Shown here: positions 10,858 through 57,108 of the stretch, one piece after another
How positions within the stretch are numbered: position 1 is the stretch's first letter
Layout of the letters: each line of letters opens with the position of its first letter
NCBI GenBank assembly: GCA_040398845.1
Contig: JBBATH010000004.1
Span: 146,981-210,980 of the forward strand
Length of the DNA: 64,000 bases
Direction of reading: 5' to 3'
Origin: Candidatus Nanopelagicales bacterium
GTDB lineage: Bacteria; Actinomycetota; Actinomycetes; S36-B12
Made by a program: the position numbers and the translations under genes
Notes under the pieces: generated by a model
Databases searched by the model: none
Seen by the model: only the letters and a program-made list of their open reading frames with translations
Told to the model about the DNA's origin: nothing

Positions 10858-12153
10858 CTACCACTCCCAGAGGGCCGAGATGGGCAGCCCCCACAGCCGC
10901 TCGGAATGCTGATGGCCTGCCTCACCCGTGCCCAGGACGATCCCACCCGCGAAGCGGGACCCCAAACGCTCCGCGAACGAGCGCAGCCCCGCGAAGTGCT
11001 CGCCCCTGAATGAGGATGCCGCATTCACCTCGATGCCGATGACTCGGCCGTCGTCGAGTTCGACGACGAGATCGACTTCGAGGCCATTTCGATCTCGGTA
11101 GTGGGAGAGGGCATACGAGGTCTCGCTCCACCCTGCTTGCTTCATCAATTCGGAGACGACGAATCCCTCAAGCAGCGGGCCCAGATGGTCCCCGCCGACC
11201 AGGGGCTCAAGTTGGCCGGCCGACATGCGGGCCAGTCTCATGGCGACCGCCGAATCCAAGACGATGGACTTGTGTCGCCCGATCTCACGTCTGGTGAGGT
11301 TGGGGGTCCACGGCGGTAGCGCTGAGACTAGGAAGATGGCGGCGGCGACATCAAGGTAGGTCGAGATCGAGGTTGCCGGGATGCCTGACTGCTCAGCGAG
11401 ACGGCCCTTCACCAACTCACCGGACTGATTGGCCGCCAGTAGGCGCAGGACAGCCCGAAGACGCGCAGGTTGCACCTGGCGGTAGACAGAGGCCGCATCC
11501 CGTTTAATGATGCGCGCAAGATAGCCGCCCAACCAGACTGTTCGCATTCGGCCTTCGAGCCCCTGAACCGCAGGGTAGGCACCTCGAGCCAGCATGCCAA
11601 CGTAGTCCTGCCGACGCCAGGTCGTCCTGAATGCTGCCGGAGTGCCGTCATCCAGGATGCGCGTGACGAAGTCGTCGCTTCGCCCGACCATTTCGCCTTG
11701 GCTCAGCCCGTGCACGTGAATGGTTGCTCCTCGGCCAGCAAGGCTGTCTGCTGTCCCGGGGACCTTGAGCAGGTCGGTCGAACCCGTGAGGATGAACCGG
11801 CCCGGGCGCCGATCCCGATCAATAGCCGCCTTGATCGGCAGGACAATCTCTGGCACTCGCTGGACTTCGTCCAAGACCAGAGCCTTGCCCGGGAACTGGG
11901 CGACGAATGCGTCGGGGTCGGCTCGCACTGCATCCCTCGTTGCAGCATCATCGAAGGTGAAGTGCTCCGCTGCCAACCCCTGGGTGAGCATCCCCGCGAA
12001 CGTGCTCTTTCCTACCTGCCGTGCGCCCTGAATTACCACCGCGGGGAAAGCGGCAATTGTCTCCCGCGCAAAGGGGAGGAGATGTCTCGTAGGTTTGCTT
12101 CTCAATTCTCGTAGATTTGCTGGCTGATTCTCGTAGGTTTGCTGGCCAAGCAT
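10858..12153 (-). CDS. AAA+ ATP-binding protein with DUF4143 domain (COG1373 type), paralog 1
   Basis: Walker A (VVIQGARQVGKSTFAG), Walker B (LVLDEVQRVPE), RFILTGS motif and a DUF4143-like C-terminal half. The true start is probably downstream of the annotated ATG, for example TTG 12105, because three 22-nt-phased DNA repeats occupy 12084-12142. Confidence 0.8.
   Translation of the reverse strand: MLGQQTYENQPANLRELRSKPTRHLLPFARETIAAFPAVVIQGARQVGKSTFAGMLTQGLAAEHFTFDDAATRDAVRADPDAFVAQFPGKALVLDEVQRVPEIVLPIKAAIDRDRRPGRFILTGSTDLLKVPGTADSLAGRGATIHVHGLSQGEMVGRSDDFVTRILDDGTPAAFRTTWRRQDYVGMLARGAYPAVQGLEGRMRTVWLGGYLARIIKRDAASVYRQVQPARLRAVLRLLAANQSGELVKGRLAEQSGIPATSISTYLDVAAAIFLVSALPPWTPNLTRREIGRHKSIVLDSAVAMRLARMSAGQLEPLVGGDHLGPLLEGFVVSELMKQAGWSETSYALSHYRDRNGLEVDLVVELDDGRVIGIEVNAASSFRGEHFAGLRSFAERLGSRFAGGIVLGTGEAGHQHSERLWGLPISALWEW
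12084..12142 (-). repeat. three direct repeats GCAAAYCTACGAGA with exact 22-nt phasing at the 5' end of DUF4143 gene 1
   Basis: Plus-strand copies are gtctcgtaggtttgc (12084), ttctcgtagatttgc (12106) and ttctcgtaggtttgc (12128). The 22-nt period is not a multiple of 3, so this is not a peptide repeat. Confidence 0.7.
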
Positions 12154-48841: not shown

Positions 48842-49450
48842 GTGAAAATCATTTCTATCGCCGCAATCGCGCTGGCCGGAGCGCTCAGCCTCGCAGCATG
48901 CAGTAGCTCGACAGACGAAACGGCCGCAGCACCCGCAGCATCCACAACCGCTGCCTCAGAAATGCCCATGGCCGCCTCAGAAATGCCCATGGCCGCCTCA
49001 GAAATGCCCATGGCCGCAGGCGACATCATCGACATCGCAAGCACCACTGATGGCTTCGCTACGCTCACCGCCGCCGTCACCGCGGGCGGCCTTGTCGAGA
49101 CCCTCAAGGGTGCGGGCCCGTTCACGGTGTTCGCACCGACTGACGCAGCATTTGCAGCACTTCCGGCCGGCGTCCTCGACGCACTGCTGCTGCCGGAGAA
49201 CAAGGATGCCCTCGCCAAGATTCTTGCGTACCACGTGGTTGCCGGCAAGGTCATGGCAGCTGACGTGACCGATGGCGACGTCGCGACCGTCGAAGGCCAG
49301 AACGTGACCCTGTCGACCGCTGATGGCGTCACCGTCAACGGCGCAAAGGTCGTCCAGGCTGATGTCGTGACCTCCAATGGCGTTATCCATGCCATCGATG
49401 CCGTCATCCTGCCCCCGGATGTCGACGTCGCGGCGCTTCTCGCGAAGTAG
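48842..49450 (+). CDS. fasciclin (FAS1) domain lipoprotein, paralog 2, with Met-rich linker repeat
   Basis: [20 protein letters not shown] lipobox and a FAS1 body nearly colinear with paralog 1 ([28 protein letters not shown]..). Start set at GTG 48842 within ORF 48644..49450. Confidence 0.88.
48953..49015 (+). repeat. perfect 3 x 21-bp in-frame tandem repeat gcctcagaaatgcccatggcc encoding (ASEMPMA)3
   Basis: Units start at 48953, 48974 and 48995 and are identical base for base. They sit inside the linker of fasciclin paralog 2. Confidence 0.95.
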
Positions 49451-50371: not shown

Positions 50372-53052
<2,681 letters not shown>

Positions 53053-53086
53053 TCCAAAGGGCCTCATTCGAGGCCGATGTCACCGA

Positions 53087-53121
53087 GCTTGCTGGTTCTC
53101 CAGCAAGCCCGGTGCTTTTTT
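53087..53121 (+). terminator. probable katG terminator
   Basis: Stem GCTTGCTGG / CCAGCAAGC with loop TTCT, followed 7 nt later by TTTTTT. A smaller hairpin GGCCTC-ATTC-GAGGCC lies at 53060-53075. Confidence 0.5.
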
Positions 53122-53185
53122 GGGGTGCTGTCGCACTGCCAGCAATGCTCGTGTGCTGAGCACAGCGTTACCTGTGTCCGTCCAG

Positions 53186-53244
53186 TACTATTTGCGGGTT
53201 GCAGTGAGTACAATCTGCGGATTAAATCGGGTATAATCTGCGGA
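53186..53244 (+). repeat. three direct repeats TAyWATyTGCGGr with exact 23-nt phasing upstream of DUF4143 gene 2
   Basis: TACTATTTGCGGG (53186), TACAATCTGCGGA (53209) and TATAATCTGCGGA (53232). The last copy contains TATAAT and ends 22 nt before ATG 53266. Confidence 0.7.
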
Positions 53245-53265
53245 ACTGACAACCCGGGAGTCGGC

Positions 53266-54516
53266 ATGGCATATCAAGCCCGCATCGCTGATGGCGAACT
53301 TGCGGCACGACTGGAGTCATCCGGCGCAGTACTCATTGAGGGGCCTAAAGCATGCGGAAAGACTGAGACCGCTCGCCAGCAGGCCGCTTCGGAGGTTCGT
53401 CTAGACGTCGACGGCCAACAACGTGCCGCCGCAGAAATCACCCCAGAACTCGTCCTCGATCGCCCTGCCCCACTCTTGATAGCCGAGTGGCAACTCGTGC
53501 CGTCAATTTGGGCCCACGTCCGCCGTGCCGTCGATGACCGCCAAGCACGCGGGCAGTTCATCCTTACCGGGTCAGCCACACCGAACGACGATGTATCCCG
53601 ACATTCAGGAGCCGGTCGGATCGCAGTCATGCGGTTGCGGCCCATGTGCCTCGCAGAATCCGGGCGCAGCACGGCGACGGTGTCCTTGACGAAACTGCTA
53701 GACGACAGCACACAGACTGCGGCTGACCCTGGCTTGACAGTGCCTGACCTTGCCACAGCGATCACCGTGGGTGGATGGCCGGCGGAACAGCGAACTCCCC
53801 CCGCGACTGTGTCCCGCAGCCTGCGCGACTATCTGACTCAGATCAGCCATGTGGATGTTGCAGCAGTGTCGGGAGGGCGCCGAGACCCGTCGAAGGTCGA
53901 TGCACTGCTGCGATCCTTGGCTCGAAATACGGCAAGCAAGGCCACGATCACAACACTCACGATCGATGCCACCGGACCTGGGGAAACGCTGGACCGCGAC
54001 TCCGTCAGTGGCTACCTCGCAATCCTCGAGCGCTTGATGGTTGTGGAGGACCAGCCGGCCTGGGCGCCGGCTATGCGTTCACGCGTGCAATTGCGCTCTT
54101 CTCCCAAACGACACTTCGTCGACCCGTCGCTGGCGGTGGCAGCGCTGCACGCCTCACCTGCCCTGCTTCTGGGCGATCTCGAGTCGATGGGGTTGCTTTT
54201 CGAATCCTTGGTGGTGCGCGACTTGCGGGTACTGGCGCAGCCGATCGACGGGCAAGTGCGGCATTACCGGGACAACAAGGGCCTTGAAGTCGACGCCATC
54301 GTGACCTGTGACGACGGCCGGTGGGGAGCCTTCGAGATCAAGCTCAGCTCCATGGGCATCGATGCGGCGGCGAAGAATCTTCTTGCGCTCGCGACCAAGA
54401 TTGACCGGGTTGCCTGTGGCGAACCGGGTGTACTCGCCGTTGTCACCGGCGCCGGCCTTGCCTACCGGCGTAAGGACGGAGTGCACGTCGTCCCTATCGG
54501 CACGCTGGGTCCCTGA
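53266..54516 (+). CDS. AAA+ ATP-binding protein with DUF4143 domain, paralog 2
   Basis: MAYQARIADGELAARLESSGAVLIEGPKACGKTETA (Walker A), LLIAEWQLVP, FILTGSA and a DUF4143-like C-terminal half. ATG 53266 was chosen within ORF 53077..54516. Confidence 0.85.
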   Translation: MAYQARIADGELAARLESSGAVLIEGPKACGKTETARQQAASEVRLDVDGQQRAAAEITPELVLDRPAPLLIAEWQLVPSIWAHVRRAVDDRQARGQFILTGSATPNDDVSRHSGAGRIAVMRLRPMCLAESGRSTATVSLTKLLDDSTQTAADPGLTVPDLATAITVGGWPAEQRTPPATVSRSLRDYLTQISHVDVAAVSGGRRDPSKVDALLRSLARNTASKATITTLTIDATGPGETLDRDSVSGYLAILERLMVVEDQPAWAPAMRSRVQLRSSPKRHFVDPSLAVAALHASPALLLGDLESMGLLFESLVVRDLRVLAQPIDGQVRHYRDNKGLEVDAIVTCDDGRWGAFEIKLSSMGIDAAAKNLLALATKIDRVACGEPGVLAVVTGAGLAYRRKDGVHVVPIGTLGP

Positions 54517-55770: not shown

Positions 55771-57108
55771 TCAGTGCTGGTTGCCGATCGCACCAAGCGA
55801 CCACGGCCGCAGTCTGCTCAGGCAGCTGGTGACGTGGGCTGCGATCGCGTCCGCGAGCCGATCCGGGAGGGGTGAGTCCCACCGGCCTCGAGACACCTCG
55901 ATCACCTCCCGAGACTCGTCAAGAAGCTGCTCGCTCATGCGTCGAACTCGCCGGAGCACCTCGCCGGGATCCACGCGGCAATCACGAGCGAGCTCGTCCC
56001 AGGCTTCGCGTCCGATCGCGTCAGGATCCCTCTCGCTGAATCCGATCCTCATGCTGAGGCTGACCGAGCGGTCACCGCGGTAGGGCAGATAAGAGTTGAG
56101 GTCGTACAGCGGGGCTAGTCGCGTCGCGGTGCGGCTGTGCAGCAGCGAATAGTTGCGCGCGTGCGCATCCGTGCCGACGACGAGCCAGTTGAAGGCGAGT
56201 GCATCGATGAAGTAATCGACGTCATGTTCTGCGTGACCGCCGGTTACCTGCTGTCGAAGCAGACGAGTGATGTCGATGACGTCCCGGCCCGCCTGCGCCT
56301 CGTACTTGCGGGTGGGCGACAAGCCCCTCGCCTGAACAGTGTCCTCCTGATGTATTCGGAGCCATTCGTCGCGAGAATCCTGGCGTCGGTCGAACCGGGT
56401 GACGATGAGTGCGCGCTCACCGTCGAATTCGGCCACTTCTGTCGGTGCGACCGGAAGCCCGACCGAAGCAGCCAGCCTCATTGTGAGGTGCTCGTTCAGG
56501 TCTTGATCGGCCAGCGCTGGGATTGCGGGCTTGAAGATGTGGGTCGATGGCACCTGTCCAGTCGACGCAGCCCACCCCGTGCTCGTGCGAGCGAGGGCGA
56601 ATTTGGCCTGCGCACCGGCGAGACTGAACTGACCCTGTGCGCTCGAAGCGGCCCAGGCTGTCGAGTCGGTGGCAATCTCGCGCAGCCGGTCACCTATCTG
56701 TTGGTCAGTGACCCGCTCAAACCCGCCAATTGATGGCGACGTCTCTGGGTGGACGAACGCGGCCGCTCCGGCGACGTCCTGACCAACGTGCCACAGCATC
56801 GCGTACGGGTCCAGGCGCTTGATGCCGTATAGCGCGCGCCAGCGGTTGAGCACCTCGCTCCGGTCGGGCAGGAGTCCTCCGAGCCAATGCGAGACCACCT
56901 GGCCGGAGTGCTGGCGGATGGAAACGGGGAGGCTGCACGACAGACCACCAGTTACCTCGCGTGCGTCGTCGGCGTAGGTGAGCTTGACCGCTCGCGCGTT
57001 GGGGCTGTCGAGCGCAGCTATGACACGGCCGTGCATGAAGACGTCGAGACGTCTCCCCACTTCGCCCGAGCGCAGCGGCCCTGGTGGCTGTCGGTGCTGC
57101 TTGCTCAC
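55771..57108 (-). CDS. hipA: HipA family serine/threonine kinase toxin
   Basis: LDVFMHGRVIAAL..(N-terminal coupling domain), FSLAGAQAKFAL, and the catalytic loop GTDAHARNYSLL. Its GTG start overlaps the hipB-like stop (GTGA). Confidence 0.88.
   Translation of the reverse strand: MSKQHRQPPGPLRSGEVGRRLDVFMHGRVIAALDSPNARAVKLTYADDAREVTGGLSCSLPVSIRQHSGQVVSHWLGGLLPDRSEVLNRWRALYGIKRLDPYAMLWHVGQDVAGAAAFVHPETSPSIGGFERVTDQQIGDRLREIATDSTAWAASSAQGQFSLAGAQAKFALARTSTGWAASTGQVPSTHIFKPAIPALADQDLNEHLTMRLAASVGLPVAPTEVAEFDGERALIVTRFDRRQDSRDEWLRIHQEDTVQARGLSPTRKYEAQAGRDVIDITRLLRQQVTGGHAEHDVDYFIDALAFNWLVVGTDAHARNYSLLHSRTATRLAPLYDLNSYLPYRGDRSVSLSMRIGFSERDPDAIGREAWDELARDCRVDPGEVLRRVRRMSEQLLDESREVIEVSRGRWDSPLPDRLADAIAAHVTSCLSRLRPWSLGAIGNQH

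What the first reader, a model, noticed from the sequence alone, without database searches (positions are those of the whole stretch)
53186..53244. The second DUF4143 ATPase gene carries an analogous triple repeat (23-nt phasing) with a related core, AATCTGCGGA versus AATCTACGAGA
TACTATTTGCGGG, TACAATCTGCGGA and TATAATCTGCGGA start at 53186, 53209 and 53232, ending 22 nt before ATG 53266. The two ATPase paralogs lie 41 kb apart and on opposite strands. Both nonetheless have three phased direct repeats at the same relative position, sharing the core AAYCTRCG. Conserved architecture with a diverged sequence suggests a dedicated cis element for this gene family, with paralog-specific recognition. 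The last copy contains a TATAAT, so occupancy would occlude a -10 element. I know of no described regulatory element for DUF4143/COG1373 genes.
Basis: seen in the sequence. Interest (0 to 1): 0.55.

Follow-up and report, generated by a model that had tools for sequence, protein, structure and literature searches.

The report
Phased repeat array for DUF4143 ATPase
Three 23-bp-spaced repeats in front of this ATPase-nuclease gene are one case of a previously undescribed DNA array found upstream of this very common, uncharacterised "defence-candidate" gene family across many bacterial phyla, and it is most likely the docking site of the gene's own protein.

Summary
Three direct repeats start at 53186, 53209 and 53232 (period 23) and end 21 nt before ATG 53266.

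Alone the array is modestly significant (2 of 5000 shuffles). Comparison makes it solid:
- In 75 of 80 orthologous loci from at least 10 phyla, the best upstream period is exactly 23 bp, with 3-7 copies.
- The repeated word differs between lineages.
- The 29%-identical paralog subfamily and distant Bacteroides, Proteobacteria and Firmicutes relatives carry 22- or 23-bp arrays too.
- No neighbouring gene is conserved, and the word occurs nowhere else nearby.

The protein models as an Orc1/Cdc6- or MalT-like AAA+ ATPase with a winged helix and a PD-(D/E)xK nuclease. The strongest protein-DNA covariation links residues 243-245, at the start of the predicted recognition helix, to repeat positions 14-17. 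Arg244 pairs with G in 8 of 8 lineages.

Where promoters can be recognised, the array abuts or overlaps them and is not transcribed.

Best reading: an autogenous binding and operator array, one protomer per unit. Binding and the sign of regulation are inferred, not shown. The literal shared 8-mer AAYCTRCG is not family-wide. I found no literature on this element.

The parts
53180..53248 (+). Whole array: three 23-bp units in strict register (53180-53202, 53203-53225, 53226-53248)
   Evidence: Periodicity score 11 at period 23, reached by 2 of 5000 shuffles. The same register is conserved in orthologues at 81-97% identity.
53185..53199 (+). Unit 1 core (GTACTATTTGCGGGT), the degenerate copy
   Evidence: three mismatches to the pattern. 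It is in register with units 2 and 3.
53208..53222 (+). Unit 2 core (GTACAATCTGCGGAT)
   Evidence: Conserved across close orthologues while the spacers diverge.
53231..53245 (+). Unit 3 core (GTATAATCTGCGGAA). Its hexamer TATAAT (53232-53237) is the likeliest -10 element of the gene.
   Evidence: Five orthologous loci have TATAAT or TACAAT of the last unit followed by 7 nt and then ATG, a leaderless geometry. The -10 role in this window is inferred.
53256..53260 (+). GGGAG, a Shine-Dalgarno-like sequence 5 nt before the ATG
   Evidence: Read directly. The orthologue L001 has GGGAGG at the equivalent place.
53266..54516 (+). DUF4143 ATPase gene (416 aa): an AAA+ domain, a winged helix and a PD-(D/E)xK nuclease domain. 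Predicted recognition helix 244-256; residues D243-R244-D245-S246 co-vary with the repeat. This copy carries Walker B D73A.
   Evidence: Pfam. PADLOC PDC-S01. AlphaFold2 model with pLDDT 91. Foldseek top hits Orc1/Cdc6, ORC and MalT. Covariation. D73A.
53081..53121 (+). Hairpin (arms 53081-53095 and 53100-53114) plus T-run 53116-53121. Likely the terminator of the upstream catalase-peroxidase gene. It separates the array from upstream transcription.
   Evidence: Inverted repeat, sequence, peroxidase domain. The terminator role is inferred; the consensus scan did not call it.
12085..12150 (-). Array of the second paralog: three 22-nt units (gene strand: ..AGCAAAYCTACGAGA..)
   Evidence: 0 of 5000 shuffles reach its score. 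Orthologues carry 3-5 units of period 22 or 23.
10858..12153 (-). Second DUF4143 ATPase ORF, 29% identical to the first. The third repeat is fused directly to the conserved R-H-L codons. The catalytic EVK motif is EVN here.
   Evidence: compared with the orthologue upstream regions.

Best explanation
The repeats are a cognate DNA-binding array for the protein encoded immediately downstream.

Proposed mechanism:
- Each 23-bp unit has about 15 conserved bp and about 8 free bp, and is the site for one protomer of the Orc1/Cdc6- or MalT-like AAA+ ATPase.
- The winged-helix recognition helix reads the lineage-specific 3' half of the core. Residues 243-246 sit at its N-terminus.
- Invariant helix residues and other parts of the protein read the semi-conserved 5' half.
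- Three to seven protomers line up head to tail at a fixed 22-23-bp spacing, presumably cooperatively and under nucleotide control.
- The array sits against or on the gene's own promoter, so occupancy feeds back on transcription.
- In this window the promoter-proximal unit carries the probable -10 (TATAAT 53232-53237). The predicted effect here is auto-repression of a potentially toxic nuclease.

Shown: the array, its strict period, its family-wide conservation, its lineage-specific words, the amino-acid/base covariation, the absence of any other conserved partner, and the position next to promoters.

Inferred: physical binding, cooperativity, ATP dependence and the sign of regulation.

My estimates: about 0.8 that the encoded protein binds the array, and about 0.55-0.6 that autoregulation is its main role.
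For: 1. Architecture. 62 of 80 upstream regions score at least 10 on the triple-periodicity statistic, against 1% of shuffles and 9-17% of control regions of the same loci. 61 of those 62 have period exactly 23, and so do 14 of the 18 weaker ones. The rows show 3-7 units.

2. Short-range footprint. Among orthologues at 81-97% protein identity, the cores GTAC(A/G)ATCTGCGGA are conserved. The spacers, flanks and copy number change, and homology stops at the first unit.

3. Generality.
- Subfamily 1 has periods of 22 or 23.
- Bacteroides, Rhizobium, Spartinivicinus and Asticcacaulis plasmid genes at 25-43% identity also have arrays.
- So do low-GC relatives on viral contigs.

4. Solo unit.
- No flanking ORF family occurs in more than 5 of 79 loci (at least 90 aa) or more than 4 (40-130 aa).
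- The core word does not recur within 3 kb on either side.
- The only co-inherited protein is therefore the ATPase.

5. Protein.
- The AlphaFold2 model has pLDDT 91 and an H-H-H-wing topology at residues 208-284.
- The best Foldseek hits are archaeal Orc1/Cdc6 on origin DNA (2qby), ORC and MalT.

6. Covariation.
- Of 9568 residue-by-base column pairs, the top ones are 244/col15 (z 10), 244/col14 (8.0), 245/col16 (7.4) and 243/col17 (6.1).
- R244 goes with G15 in 8 of 8 cluster-states, against 4 of 25 otherwise (Fisher 3.6e-5).
- DRD[ST] goes with CTGCGGAA in the window, L001, a Gaiellaceae locus and a Chloroflexi locus. KDDT goes with CTCCCCGC. DPRT goes with TCCTGCATC.
- Subfamily 1 shows the same trend.

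7. Promoter geometry.
- In low-GC loci a canonical -35/-10 pair, or the Bacteroides TAnnTTTG box, lies between the array and the ATG.
- In 12 of 15 subfamily-1 loci with an assignable start codon, a TAnnnT lies 6-7 nt before it, the leaderless pattern.
- In those loci the last unit starts at about -32, -43 or -54. That is a quantised step of about 11 bp (Rayleigh p about 5e-4 at 10.5-11 bp, n=12, hand-anchored).
Against: - No binding, footprinting or expression data exist. Everything is sequence inference.
- The distance from the last unit to the start codon ranges from 12 to 114 nt in subfamily 2. No single regulatory geometry holds, and the sign of regulation may differ between lineages or be secondary.
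- Covariation can be inflated by shared ancestry. My control (states counted once per 65%-identity cluster) is rough.
- Foldseek TM-scores to Orc1/Cdc6 are low (0.27-0.30), so the winged-helix analogy rests mainly on topology.
- Some family members show no clear array: Thermus pTT27 and Allochromatium, and L153 and L166.
- The conserved nuclease active site (D343, E357, K359) is not explained by a purely regulatory role.
Confidence: 0.58

Rival explanations
1. The protein binds the array, but regulation is incidental. The array is an obligatory cis partner of the protein's real activity. It would act as an assembly scaffold or anchoring site on which the AAA+ nuclease oligomerises (for example DNA wrapped around a ring or spiral, one protomer per 23 bp), or as a site the nuclease nicks or cuts. 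The gene and its site would then form a two-part selfish, addiction or immune module, comparable to Rep with iterons or ParB with parS.
For: - The array is co-inherited with the gene across phyla and genomic contexts.
- Its distance to the start codon and promoter is not fixed.
- The nuclease catalytic residues are conserved.
- A second covariation signal links the nuclease-domain loop 335-340 to repeat positions 6-7 (z 6.7 and 5.3). This suggests the nuclease domain also sits on the unit.
- The family is flagged as a defence candidate (PDC-S01; PMC12988326).
- Both copies in this genome carry lesions in catalytic motifs, as expected for costly genes.
Against: - The array is promoter-adjacent wherever promoters can be recognised.
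- It is helically phased to the TSS in subfamily 1. That is what a transcriptional role predicts and a pure scaffold does not.
- There is no sign of cleavage products, target duplications or second sites.
Confidence: 0.25
2. A type III toxin-antitoxin-like arrangement. The repeats would be transcribed, processed into 23-nt RNA units, and these would bind and neutralise the nuclease, as ToxI repeats do for ToxN.
For: - Tandem direct repeats lie directly upstream of a predicted nuclease gene that is a defence candidate.
- The 53180-53268 RNA folds better than shuffles (z -2.9).
Against: - Recognisable promoters lie between the array and the gene in Bacteroides, Firmicutes-like and leaderless actinobacterial loci. 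The array is therefore not part of that transcript.
- Only about 15 of 23 positions are conserved within a locus, unlike near-identical processed RNA units.
- The fold signal comes from a quasi-palindrome (ATCTGCGGAT) peculiar to this word class.
- The protein is an AAA+/winged-helix/PD-(D/E)xK protein, not a ToxN-, CptN- or TenpN-type RNase.
- The Arg-G covariation at a winged-helix recognition helix fits duplex DNA read-out.
- There is no Rfam hit.
Confidence: 0.04
3. An iteron- or ORB-type replication origin, or the end of a mobile element, served by an initiator-like AAA+ protein.
For: - Direct repeats phased at 22-23 bp next to the gene of an Orc1/Cdc6-like protein.
- Wide horizontal spread.
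- Presence on plasmids and viral contigs.
Against: - The loci sit in chromosomes of up to 6.9 Mb among housekeeping genes.
- Several paralogs occur per genome.
- There is no second, inverted copy of the word within 3 kb.
- There is no co-transferred replication, transposition or integration gene.
- All units are direct, not inverted around an unwinding element as in archaeal origins.
- The plasmids that carry the gene have their own replicons.
Confidence: 0.04
4. The repeats are not recognised by the ATPase. They would be tandem promoter-like hexamers or sites of an unrelated host regulator, or a slippage product without function.
For: - Many units begin with a -10-like hexamer (TACAAT, TATAAT, TGCATT).
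- 23 bp equals a hexamer plus a 17-bp spacer.
Against: - Words such as TTCCGGTTGGGTCCGTTGC (L073) or GCCAAACTGCTCAG (L078) are not promoter-like, yet they keep the 23-bp period.
- A host regulator cannot explain lineage-specific words that track residues of the encoded protein across phyla.
- Slippage products would not keep cores conserved while spacers diverge.
Confidence: 0.05

Closest known systems
Archaeal Orc1/Cdc6 with origin recognition boxes (ORB), e.g. S. solfataricus Orc1-1/Orc1-3 on oriC2 (PDB 2qby)
   Same: - An AAA+ module followed by a winged helix that reads repeated DNA boxes lying next to its own gene.
- It is the best structural match of the model.
- Recognition appears bipartite: a conserved half and a variable half of the box.
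- The ORB description is from established knowledge.
   Different: - ORBs are arranged in inverted orientation around an AT-rich unwinding element and serve replication. Here all units are direct, at a strict 22-23 bp, and promoter-adjacent.
- This protein carries an extra PD-(D/E)xK nuclease domain.
- Several copies occur per bacterial chromosome.
- TM-scores are low (0.27-0.30).
Iterons with Rep initiators of theta plasmids (R6K pi, F RepE, pPS10 RepA, RK2 TrfA)
   Same: - Three to seven direct repeats of about 17-22 bp at a spacing of about 22 bp.
- The repeats are replicon-specific in sequence, lie next to the gene of the winged-helix protein that binds them, and double as an autoregulatory site (established knowledge).
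   Different: - The protein is not a WH1-WH2 Rep (no Rep_3, RepA or TrfA domain).
- The context is chromosomal.
- No DnaA boxes or AT-rich region were noticed by eye; no search for them was run.
- No autonomous replicon is involved.
MalT (and LAL or SARP-type STAND regulators) with phased direct-repeat boxes upstream of -35
   Same: - An ATP-dependent oligomerising STAND/AAA+-like ATPase. MalT (8bob) is among the top structural hits.
- Arrays of direct repeats abut the -35 region, with helical phasing to the promoter.
   Different: - MalT binds DNA through a separate C-terminal LuxR-type HTH, has a sensor domain, and regulates other operons.
- Here the AAA+-associated winged helix itself appears to read DNA.
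- The only known target is the protein's own gene.
- A nuclease domain replaces the sensor.
Type III toxin-antitoxin loci (ToxIN, CptIN, TenpIN)
   Same: A short tandem repeat array directly upstream of a nuclease-type defence gene. Copy number is about 2-6 (established knowledge).
   Different: - Type III units are 34-45 nt, nearly identical, transcribed and processed into RNA.
- Here units are 22-23 bp with only the core conserved, lie upstream of the promoter, and co-vary with a DNA-binding helix.
PDC-S01, a PADLOC phage-defence candidate (DUF4143/COG1373 ATPases)
   Same: Both window proteins match its HMMs (E 1.4e-63 and 1.1e-141). This is the family to which the gene belongs.
   Different: - PDC-S01 is defined by the protein alone. 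No cis element has been described.
- Defence is unproven. One tested representative gave no protection against T4, T5 or T7 (bioRxiv 10.1101/2024.09.26.614923).

Membership tests
PDC-S01 / DUF4143 ATPase family (protein) | Match to the AAA_14 and DUF4143 Pfam models and to the PADLOC PDC-S01 HMMs | tested here: met
   - PF13173 1.2e-10 and PF13635 9.7e-30 for 53266-54516. The second paralog scores more strongly.
- PDLC04790 1.4e-63 and 1.1e-141.
PDC-S01 / DUF4143 ATPase family (protein) | Anti-phage defence activity | not testable with these tools
   It is only a candidate by genomic association (PMC12988326). One representative gave no protection in E. coli.
Iteron-type replication origin | Three or more direct repeats of 17-22 bp phased at about 22 bp, next to the initiator gene | tested here: met
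   3-7 units, period 22 or 23, directly upstream of the gene.
Iteron-type replication origin | The adjacent gene encodes a Rep initiator of the WH1-WH2 (Rep_3, RepA, pi, TrfA) type | tested here: not met
   only AAA_14 and DUF4143. AAA+/STAND folds.
Iteron-type replication origin | The element lies on, and drives, an autonomous replicon | tested here: not met
   - The loci sit in chromosomal contigs of up to 6.9 Mb.
- The window neighbours are katG, prfC and peptidases.
- Carrier plasmids have other replicons.
- Replication itself is not testable here.
Archaeal Orc1/Cdc6-ORB origin | An AAA+ initiator-clade ATPase with a C-terminal winged helix | tested here: inconclusive
   The top Foldseek hit is 2qby_A (E 7.9e-6), but TM is only 0.27-0.30. 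There is no sequence-level PDB match.
Archaeal Orc1/Cdc6-ORB origin | Boxes in inverted orientation flanking an AT-rich duplex-unwinding element | tested here: not met
   All units are direct and on the gene strand. No inverted copies occur within 3 kb.
Type III toxin-antitoxin | The repeat array is transcribed from a promoter upstream of it | tested here: not met
   Consensus -35/-10 pairs, the Bacteroides -7 box or a leaderless -10 lie between the array and the start codon. This is sequence-based; there are no transcript data.
Type III toxin-antitoxin | The toxin is a ToxN/AbiQ-, CptN- or TenpN-type endoribonuclease | tested here: not met
   an AAA+ domain, a winged helix and a PD-(D/E)xK domain.
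Type III toxin-antitoxin | Units are near-identical over their whole length (34-45 nt) | tested here: not met
   the mean within-locus conservation is high only at about columns 6-20 of 23.
MalT/LAL-type STAND transcription activators | A separate C-terminal LuxR-type HTH and a sensor (SUPR or TPR) domain | tested here: not met
   there are no such domains. The C-terminus is a PD-(D/E)xK fold.
Known RNA families (Rfam) | A match at gathering threshold | tested here: not met
   no hit anywhere in the window.

The most novel reading that the evidence does not exclude
DUF4143/PDC-S01 genes are not stand-alone proteins. They would be two-part modules in which a lineage-specific DNA array is the loading platform for an Orc-like AAA+ nuclease.

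- Protomers would dock every 22-23 bp. That is roughly 35-70 degrees of twist per unit, depending on the period; at 23 bp it is close to six per turn.
- The resulting DNA-templated oligomer would be the active or poised form of the enzyme. It would be a chromosomally anchored sensor or effector of an immune or addiction system, with autoregulation only a by-product.
- This would be a new class of protein-plus-cis-site module in one of the most abundant uncharacterised prokaryotic families.
Probability: 0.25. Interest if true: 0.85.

Novelty: new variant of a known kind. Interest (0 to 1): 0.74.

Why it matters
DUF4143/COG1373 ATPases (PADLOC PDC-S01) are reported as the fourth most common 'defence' entry in prokaryotic genomes, with about 40,000 detections (PMC12988326). 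No function, ligand or regulator is known for them.

Showing that they carry a cognate, lineage-specific DNA array has several consequences:
- It turns an anonymous ATPase-nuclease into a predicted sequence-specific DNA-binding AAA+ protein with a known target site.
- It gives a readable specificity code, for example Arg244 with G and Asp244 with C-rich words.
- It makes direct experiments possible: EMSA, specificity swaps and reporter fusions.
- It warns that functional tests with the ORF cloned without its upstream array, or under a foreign promoter, may miss the biology.
- It explains how many paralogs can coexist in one genome without cross-talk.

Tried and rejected
- **Rfam scan of the window:** no hit.
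- **Consensus promoter and terminator scan of 52900-53400:** nothing called, so the promoter assignment in the window remains inferential.
- **Literal shared core AAYCTRCG as a family motif:** rejected. It is present in only 10 of 132 loci, although always on the gene strand.
- **Second, inverted or downstream copies of each locus's word (mobile-element ends):** none within 3 kb.
- **Conserved partner gene, large or small:** none.
- **RNA structure:** the only signal is a quasi-palindrome specific to the CTGCGGA word.
- **PDB sequence search and NCBIfam:** no informative match.
- **Literature:**
  - DUF4143, COG1373, PDC-S01 and guilt-by-embedding searches gave no mention of repeats.
  - The AAA_14 search returned only noise.
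  - The Orc1/Cdc6 anti-phage search returned BREX and Dnd papers only.
- **Common frame for low-GC loci:** aligning their units to the high-GC frame for a shared anchor-to-promoter measurement was unreliable, so I did not use it.
- **The 21-nt perfect tandem repeat at 48953-49017:** considered as a further array and rejected. It encodes AASEMPM x3 inside a lipoprotein gene.
Full report
**1. The observation**

TACTATTTGCGGG, TACAATCTGCGGA and TATAATCTGCGGA start at 53186, 53209 and 53232. They are followed by 21 nt that contain GGGAG (53256-53260), and then by ATG 53266.

- The ORF 53266-54516 encodes a 416-aa protein with AAA_14 and DUF4143 domains. Most of the 120 listed homologues are 416 aa long, which fixes the start codon.
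- Upstream lies a catalase-peroxidase ORF ending at 53052, followed by a hairpin and a T-run at 53081-53121.
- The second copy is on the minus strand (10858-12153). It has three 22-nt units at 12085-12150. The two proteins are 29% identical.
- For the locus alone, 2 of 5000 dinucleotide shuffles reach the periodicity score. For paralog 1 the figure is 0 of 5000. However, 1.8% of real 160-nt tiles of the window score as high at some period.
- By itself the paralog-2 array is therefore suggestive, not compelling.

**2. Comparative evidence**

A scan of one genome per species returned 80 loci encoding relatives of the 53266 protein at 52-83% identity. They come from Actinomycetota, Cyanobacteriota, Gemmatimonadota, Acidobacteriota, Chloroflexota, Elusimicrobiota, Planctomycetota, Deinococcota and others.

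- Almost every upstream region shows a ladder of direct repeats.
- 62 of 80 regions (79 loci plus the window; L021, cut at its contig end, is left out) score at least 10. This compares with 1% of shuffles and 9-17% of four control regions from the same loci.
- The best period is exactly 23 in 61 of those 62, and in 14 of the 18 weaker regions.
- Arrays have 3-7 units in strict register. The word is never found elsewhere within 3 kb on either strand, apart from one chance hit.
- Among close orthologues (81-97% protein identity), the cores GTAC(A/G)ATCTGCGGA are conserved. Spacers, flanks, copy number and neighbouring genes differ, and similarity ends at the first unit.
- Gene plus array therefore behaves as one unit. 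No flanking ORF family is shared by more than 5 of 79 loci, and no small ORF by more than 4.

**3. Generality**

- Relatives of paralog 1 from metagenomes carry 3-5 units of period 22 or 23, with words of the GCAAACCTACGAG kind.
- Plasmid-borne DUF4143 genes at only 25-43% identity have arrays as well. These are Bacteroides ovatus and B. uniformis (3-4 x 23), two Rhizobium (22), Spartinivicinus (4 x 23) and Asticcacaulis (3 x 23).
- Thermus pTT27 and Allochromatium show none, and two Rhizobiales loci are weak.
- Low-GC relatives on viral contigs show 23-bp arrays in 10 of 15 distinct loci, some with 5-7 near-perfect units.
- The element is thus a property of the family, not of this genome.

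**4. Anatomy of a unit**

I aligned the units of all loci by cyclic rotation.

- About 15 positions (columns 6-20) are conserved within a locus, and about 8 are free.
- Across loci the consensus is tTTACAATCTCCCCGCTga.
- The 5' half (T, T/G, A/G, C, A, A/T, T; GCCAAA in low-GC genomes) is semi-conserved across phyla.
- The 3' half is lineage-specific: CCCCGC, GCGGAA, CTGCAT, GCCGCT and others.
It is a chance overlap of two words that share the ancestral 5' half, not the conserved feature.

**5. The protein**

- AlphaFold2 gives a confident model (pLDDT 91, pTM 0.91):
  - an AAA+ core;
  - a helical region;
  - a three-helix-plus-wing unit (H208-220, H228-235, H244-256, strands 260-263 and 281-284);
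  - an alpha/beta domain bearing the invariant D343, E357 and K359 of PD-(D/E)xK nucleases (family assignment in PMC3424549).
- The best Foldseek matches are Orc1/Cdc6 on origin DNA (2qby), ORC subunits, MalT, SAMD9, the Pyrococcus ATPase 2qen, and STAND NTPases. Card1 matches the nuclease part. TM-scores are low.
- Both window proteins match PADLOC PDC-S01.
  - This is a defence candidate by association only and is very abundant.
  - It gave no protection in the one published test.

**6. Who reads the repeats?**

The word changes from lineage to lineage and no other gene travels with it, so the encoded protein is the obvious candidate.

- I computed mutual information (APC-corrected) between every protein alignment column and every unit column over 70 loci.
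- Of 9568 pairs, the top four protein-DNA links are 244/15 (z 10), 244/14 (8.0), 245/16 (7.4) and 243/17 (6.1).
- The 7-residue window around 242-246 is 5.6 sd above the mean.
- These residues form the N-terminal end of the predicted recognition helix. T246, Y250 and L254, further along the helix, are invariant or nearly so.
- The table reads like a code:
  - DRD[ST] with CTGCGGAA (window, L001, a Gaiellaceae MAG, a Chloroflexi MAG);
  - KDDT with CTCCCCGC;
  - KRDT with (C/T)GCCCGC;
  - DPRT with TCCTGCATC;
  - K(K/Q)HT with TGCCGC.
- Counting each state once per 65%-identity cluster, Arg244 goes with G at column 15 in 8 of 8 cases, against 4 of 25 for other residues (Fisher 3.6e-5). An Arg-guanine pairing is what direct read-out would give.
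- Subfamily 1 shows the same tendency at the equivalent helix start: P-A-[ST]-S with CTACGAG, P-A-A-T with CAACGA, S-A-A-S with CTATGGG.
- A weaker signal links the nuclease-domain loop 335-340 with columns 6-7.
- Shared ancestry inflates such statistics, so this is strong circumstantial evidence, not proof.

**7. Position relative to promoters**

- In low-GC loci the promoter is recognisable and lies between the array and the ATG. Examples are TTGCAA-17-TATAAT in L156, TGACAT-16-TAATAT in L158, TATAAT 6 nt after the last core in L148, and the Bacteroides TAnnTTTG box in L138, L139 and L161-L164.
- In 12 of 15 subfamily-1 loci with an assignable start codon, TAnnnT lies 6-7 nt before it. That is the leaderless signature.
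- Measured by hand from those sequences, the last unit starts near -32, -43 or -54. This quantisation of about 11 bp gives Rayleigh p about 5e-4 at 10.5-11 bp and is not significant at 8-9 or 13-14 bp (n=12).
- The array is therefore upstream of or overlapping the core promoter, is generally not transcribed, and is phased with it. This argues for a transcriptional role and against an RNA (type III TA-like) role.
- In subfamily 2 the geometry varies. The distance from the last unit to the start codon is 12-114 nt.
- In five of those loci the last unit's TATAAT or TACAAT is followed by 7 nt and then ATG, so that unit is the -10.
- In the window and L001 the same hexamer lies 34 nt before the ATG, with a Shine-Dalgarno sequence in between. 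That makes 53232-53237 the likely -10 and the third unit an operator over it.
- The T that makes it TATAAT is specific to this genome. The 97%-identical orthologue has TACAAT.

**8. Interpretation**

The best-supported reading is an autogenous binding and operator array. One protomer would bind per 22-23-bp unit, through an Orc1/Cdc6-like winged helix with lineage-specific read-out, and occupancy would feed back on the gene's own promoter.

- This works like iterons with Rep, ORBs with Orc1/Cdc6, or MalT boxes.
- It is a member of none of these families. The defining features that fail are the Rep fold, an autonomous replicon, inverted boxes around an unwinding element, and a LuxR HTH with a sensor domain.
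- The conserved nuclease site and the variable distance to the promoter leave room for a larger role of the array as the protein's assembly or action site. I give that reading 0.25.
- The RNA, origin/mobile-end, and 'not recognised by this protein' readings are each at or below 0.05.

**9. Novelty**

Full-text searches of PMC and bioRxiv for DUF4143, COG1373 and PDC-S01 return no description of upstream repeats, DNA binding or regulation.

The principle, a protein with its own phased direct-repeat array, is known. Its association with this very large family, the strict 22-23-bp period across phyla, and the inferred recognition code appear to be new. I therefore class it as a new variant of a known kind.

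**10. State of the two copies in this window**

- Paralog 2 has Ala instead of the otherwise invariant Walker B Asp73. All 43 other aligned homologues and the 97%-identical P0001 have Asp.
- Paralog 1 has EVN instead of the catalytic EVK found in 18 of 19 orthologues (L120 is truncated at this point).
- Paralog 1 also lacks the roughly 50-nt spacer, the leaderless promoter and the native start. Its third repeat is fused to the R-H-L codons, and the ORF runs through the repeats from ATG 12153.
- Both copies may be functionally impaired, yet both keep their arrays.

Noticed in passing
window 12081-12153 (- strand): In paralog 1 the third repeat runs straight into the conserved R-H-L codons (acg aga cat ctc). 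Most orthologues (12 of 15 with an assignable start) have about 25-50 nt of spacer with a leaderless -10, then ATG and 4 codons before this motif. Here the ORF can only start upstream (ATG 12153 or TTG 12105) and reads through the repeats. L120 shows a similarly compact arrangement.
   Followed up: partly
window 10858-12153 (- strand), motif GIEVNAAS: The catalytic lysine of the PD-(D/E)xK motif is Asn in this copy (EVN). 18 of the 19 aligned orthologues have E/D-[VI]-K; L120 is truncated at this point. Together with the 5' rearrangement, this suggests a decaying or nuclease-dead copy.
   Followed up: partly
window 53482-53484 (codon 73 of the 53266 gene): Walker B Asp73 is Ala (LLIAEWQ). All 43 other aligned homologues and the 97%-identical P0001 have LLIDEWQ. 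This is a single A-to-C change (GAC to GCC). It is either a real ATPase-affecting mutation or a sequencing error.
   Followed up: partly
window 53214-53244: The word of this lineage is quasi-palindromic (AATCTGCGGATT against its complement AATCCGCAGATT, 10 of 12). As a result, copies 2 and 3 can pair as an 11-bp hairpin in RNA or single-stranded DNA (z -2.9). This is not seen in other word classes such as CTCCCCGC.
   Followed up: partly
window 48953-49017: A perfect 21-nt x 3.1 tandem repeat (GCCTCAGAAATGCCCATGGCC). It lies inside an ORF beginning with a lipoprotein-like signal peptide and encodes AASEMPM x3 in the linker. It is unrelated to the DUF4143 arrays.
   Followed up: partly
window 55771-57108 (- strand); also L145, L170, L140: A HipA-family toxin gene lies 1.2 kb downstream of the 53266 gene. 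Other DUF4143 loci also sit next to toxin-antitoxin genes: a HipA/YjjJ toxin in the Allochromatium plasmid, PemK upstream in L170, and ParD in Rhizobium Q54. This may reflect a shared 'accessory island' context. I did not quantify it.
   Followed up: no
L003, L008, L010, L017/L018, L039, L051 (Solirubrobacterales), positions about -12 to +2 relative to the aligned codon 1: In these loci the last repeat overlaps the start of the coding region, and there is no canonical ATG, GTG or TTG near the conserved Tyr3. An in-frame ATT inside the last unit's TGCATT lies at -12 in all of them, 6 nt after a TATAAT- or TATACT-like hexamer in some. This could be a non-canonical or leaderless start, or a misplaced start.
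   Followed up: partly
protein residues 335-340 (window 54268-54285) against unit columns 6-7: A second covariation signal (z 6.7 and 5.3) links the loop just before catalytic D343 of the nuclease domain to the 5' edge of the repeat core. This hints that the nuclease domain also touches the unit.
   Followed up: no
L001-L080: Proteins 52-60% identical to the window protein occur in at least 10 bacterial phyla, with no conserved neighbourhood. This implies frequent horizontal transfer of the gene-plus-array unit.
   Followed up: partly
L081-L119 upstream regions: In subfamily 1 the start of the promoter-proximal unit falls at about -32, -43 or -54 from the leaderless start codon. That is a step of about 11 bp, half the array period, so the units keep one face of the helix relative to the -10.
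   Followed up: partly
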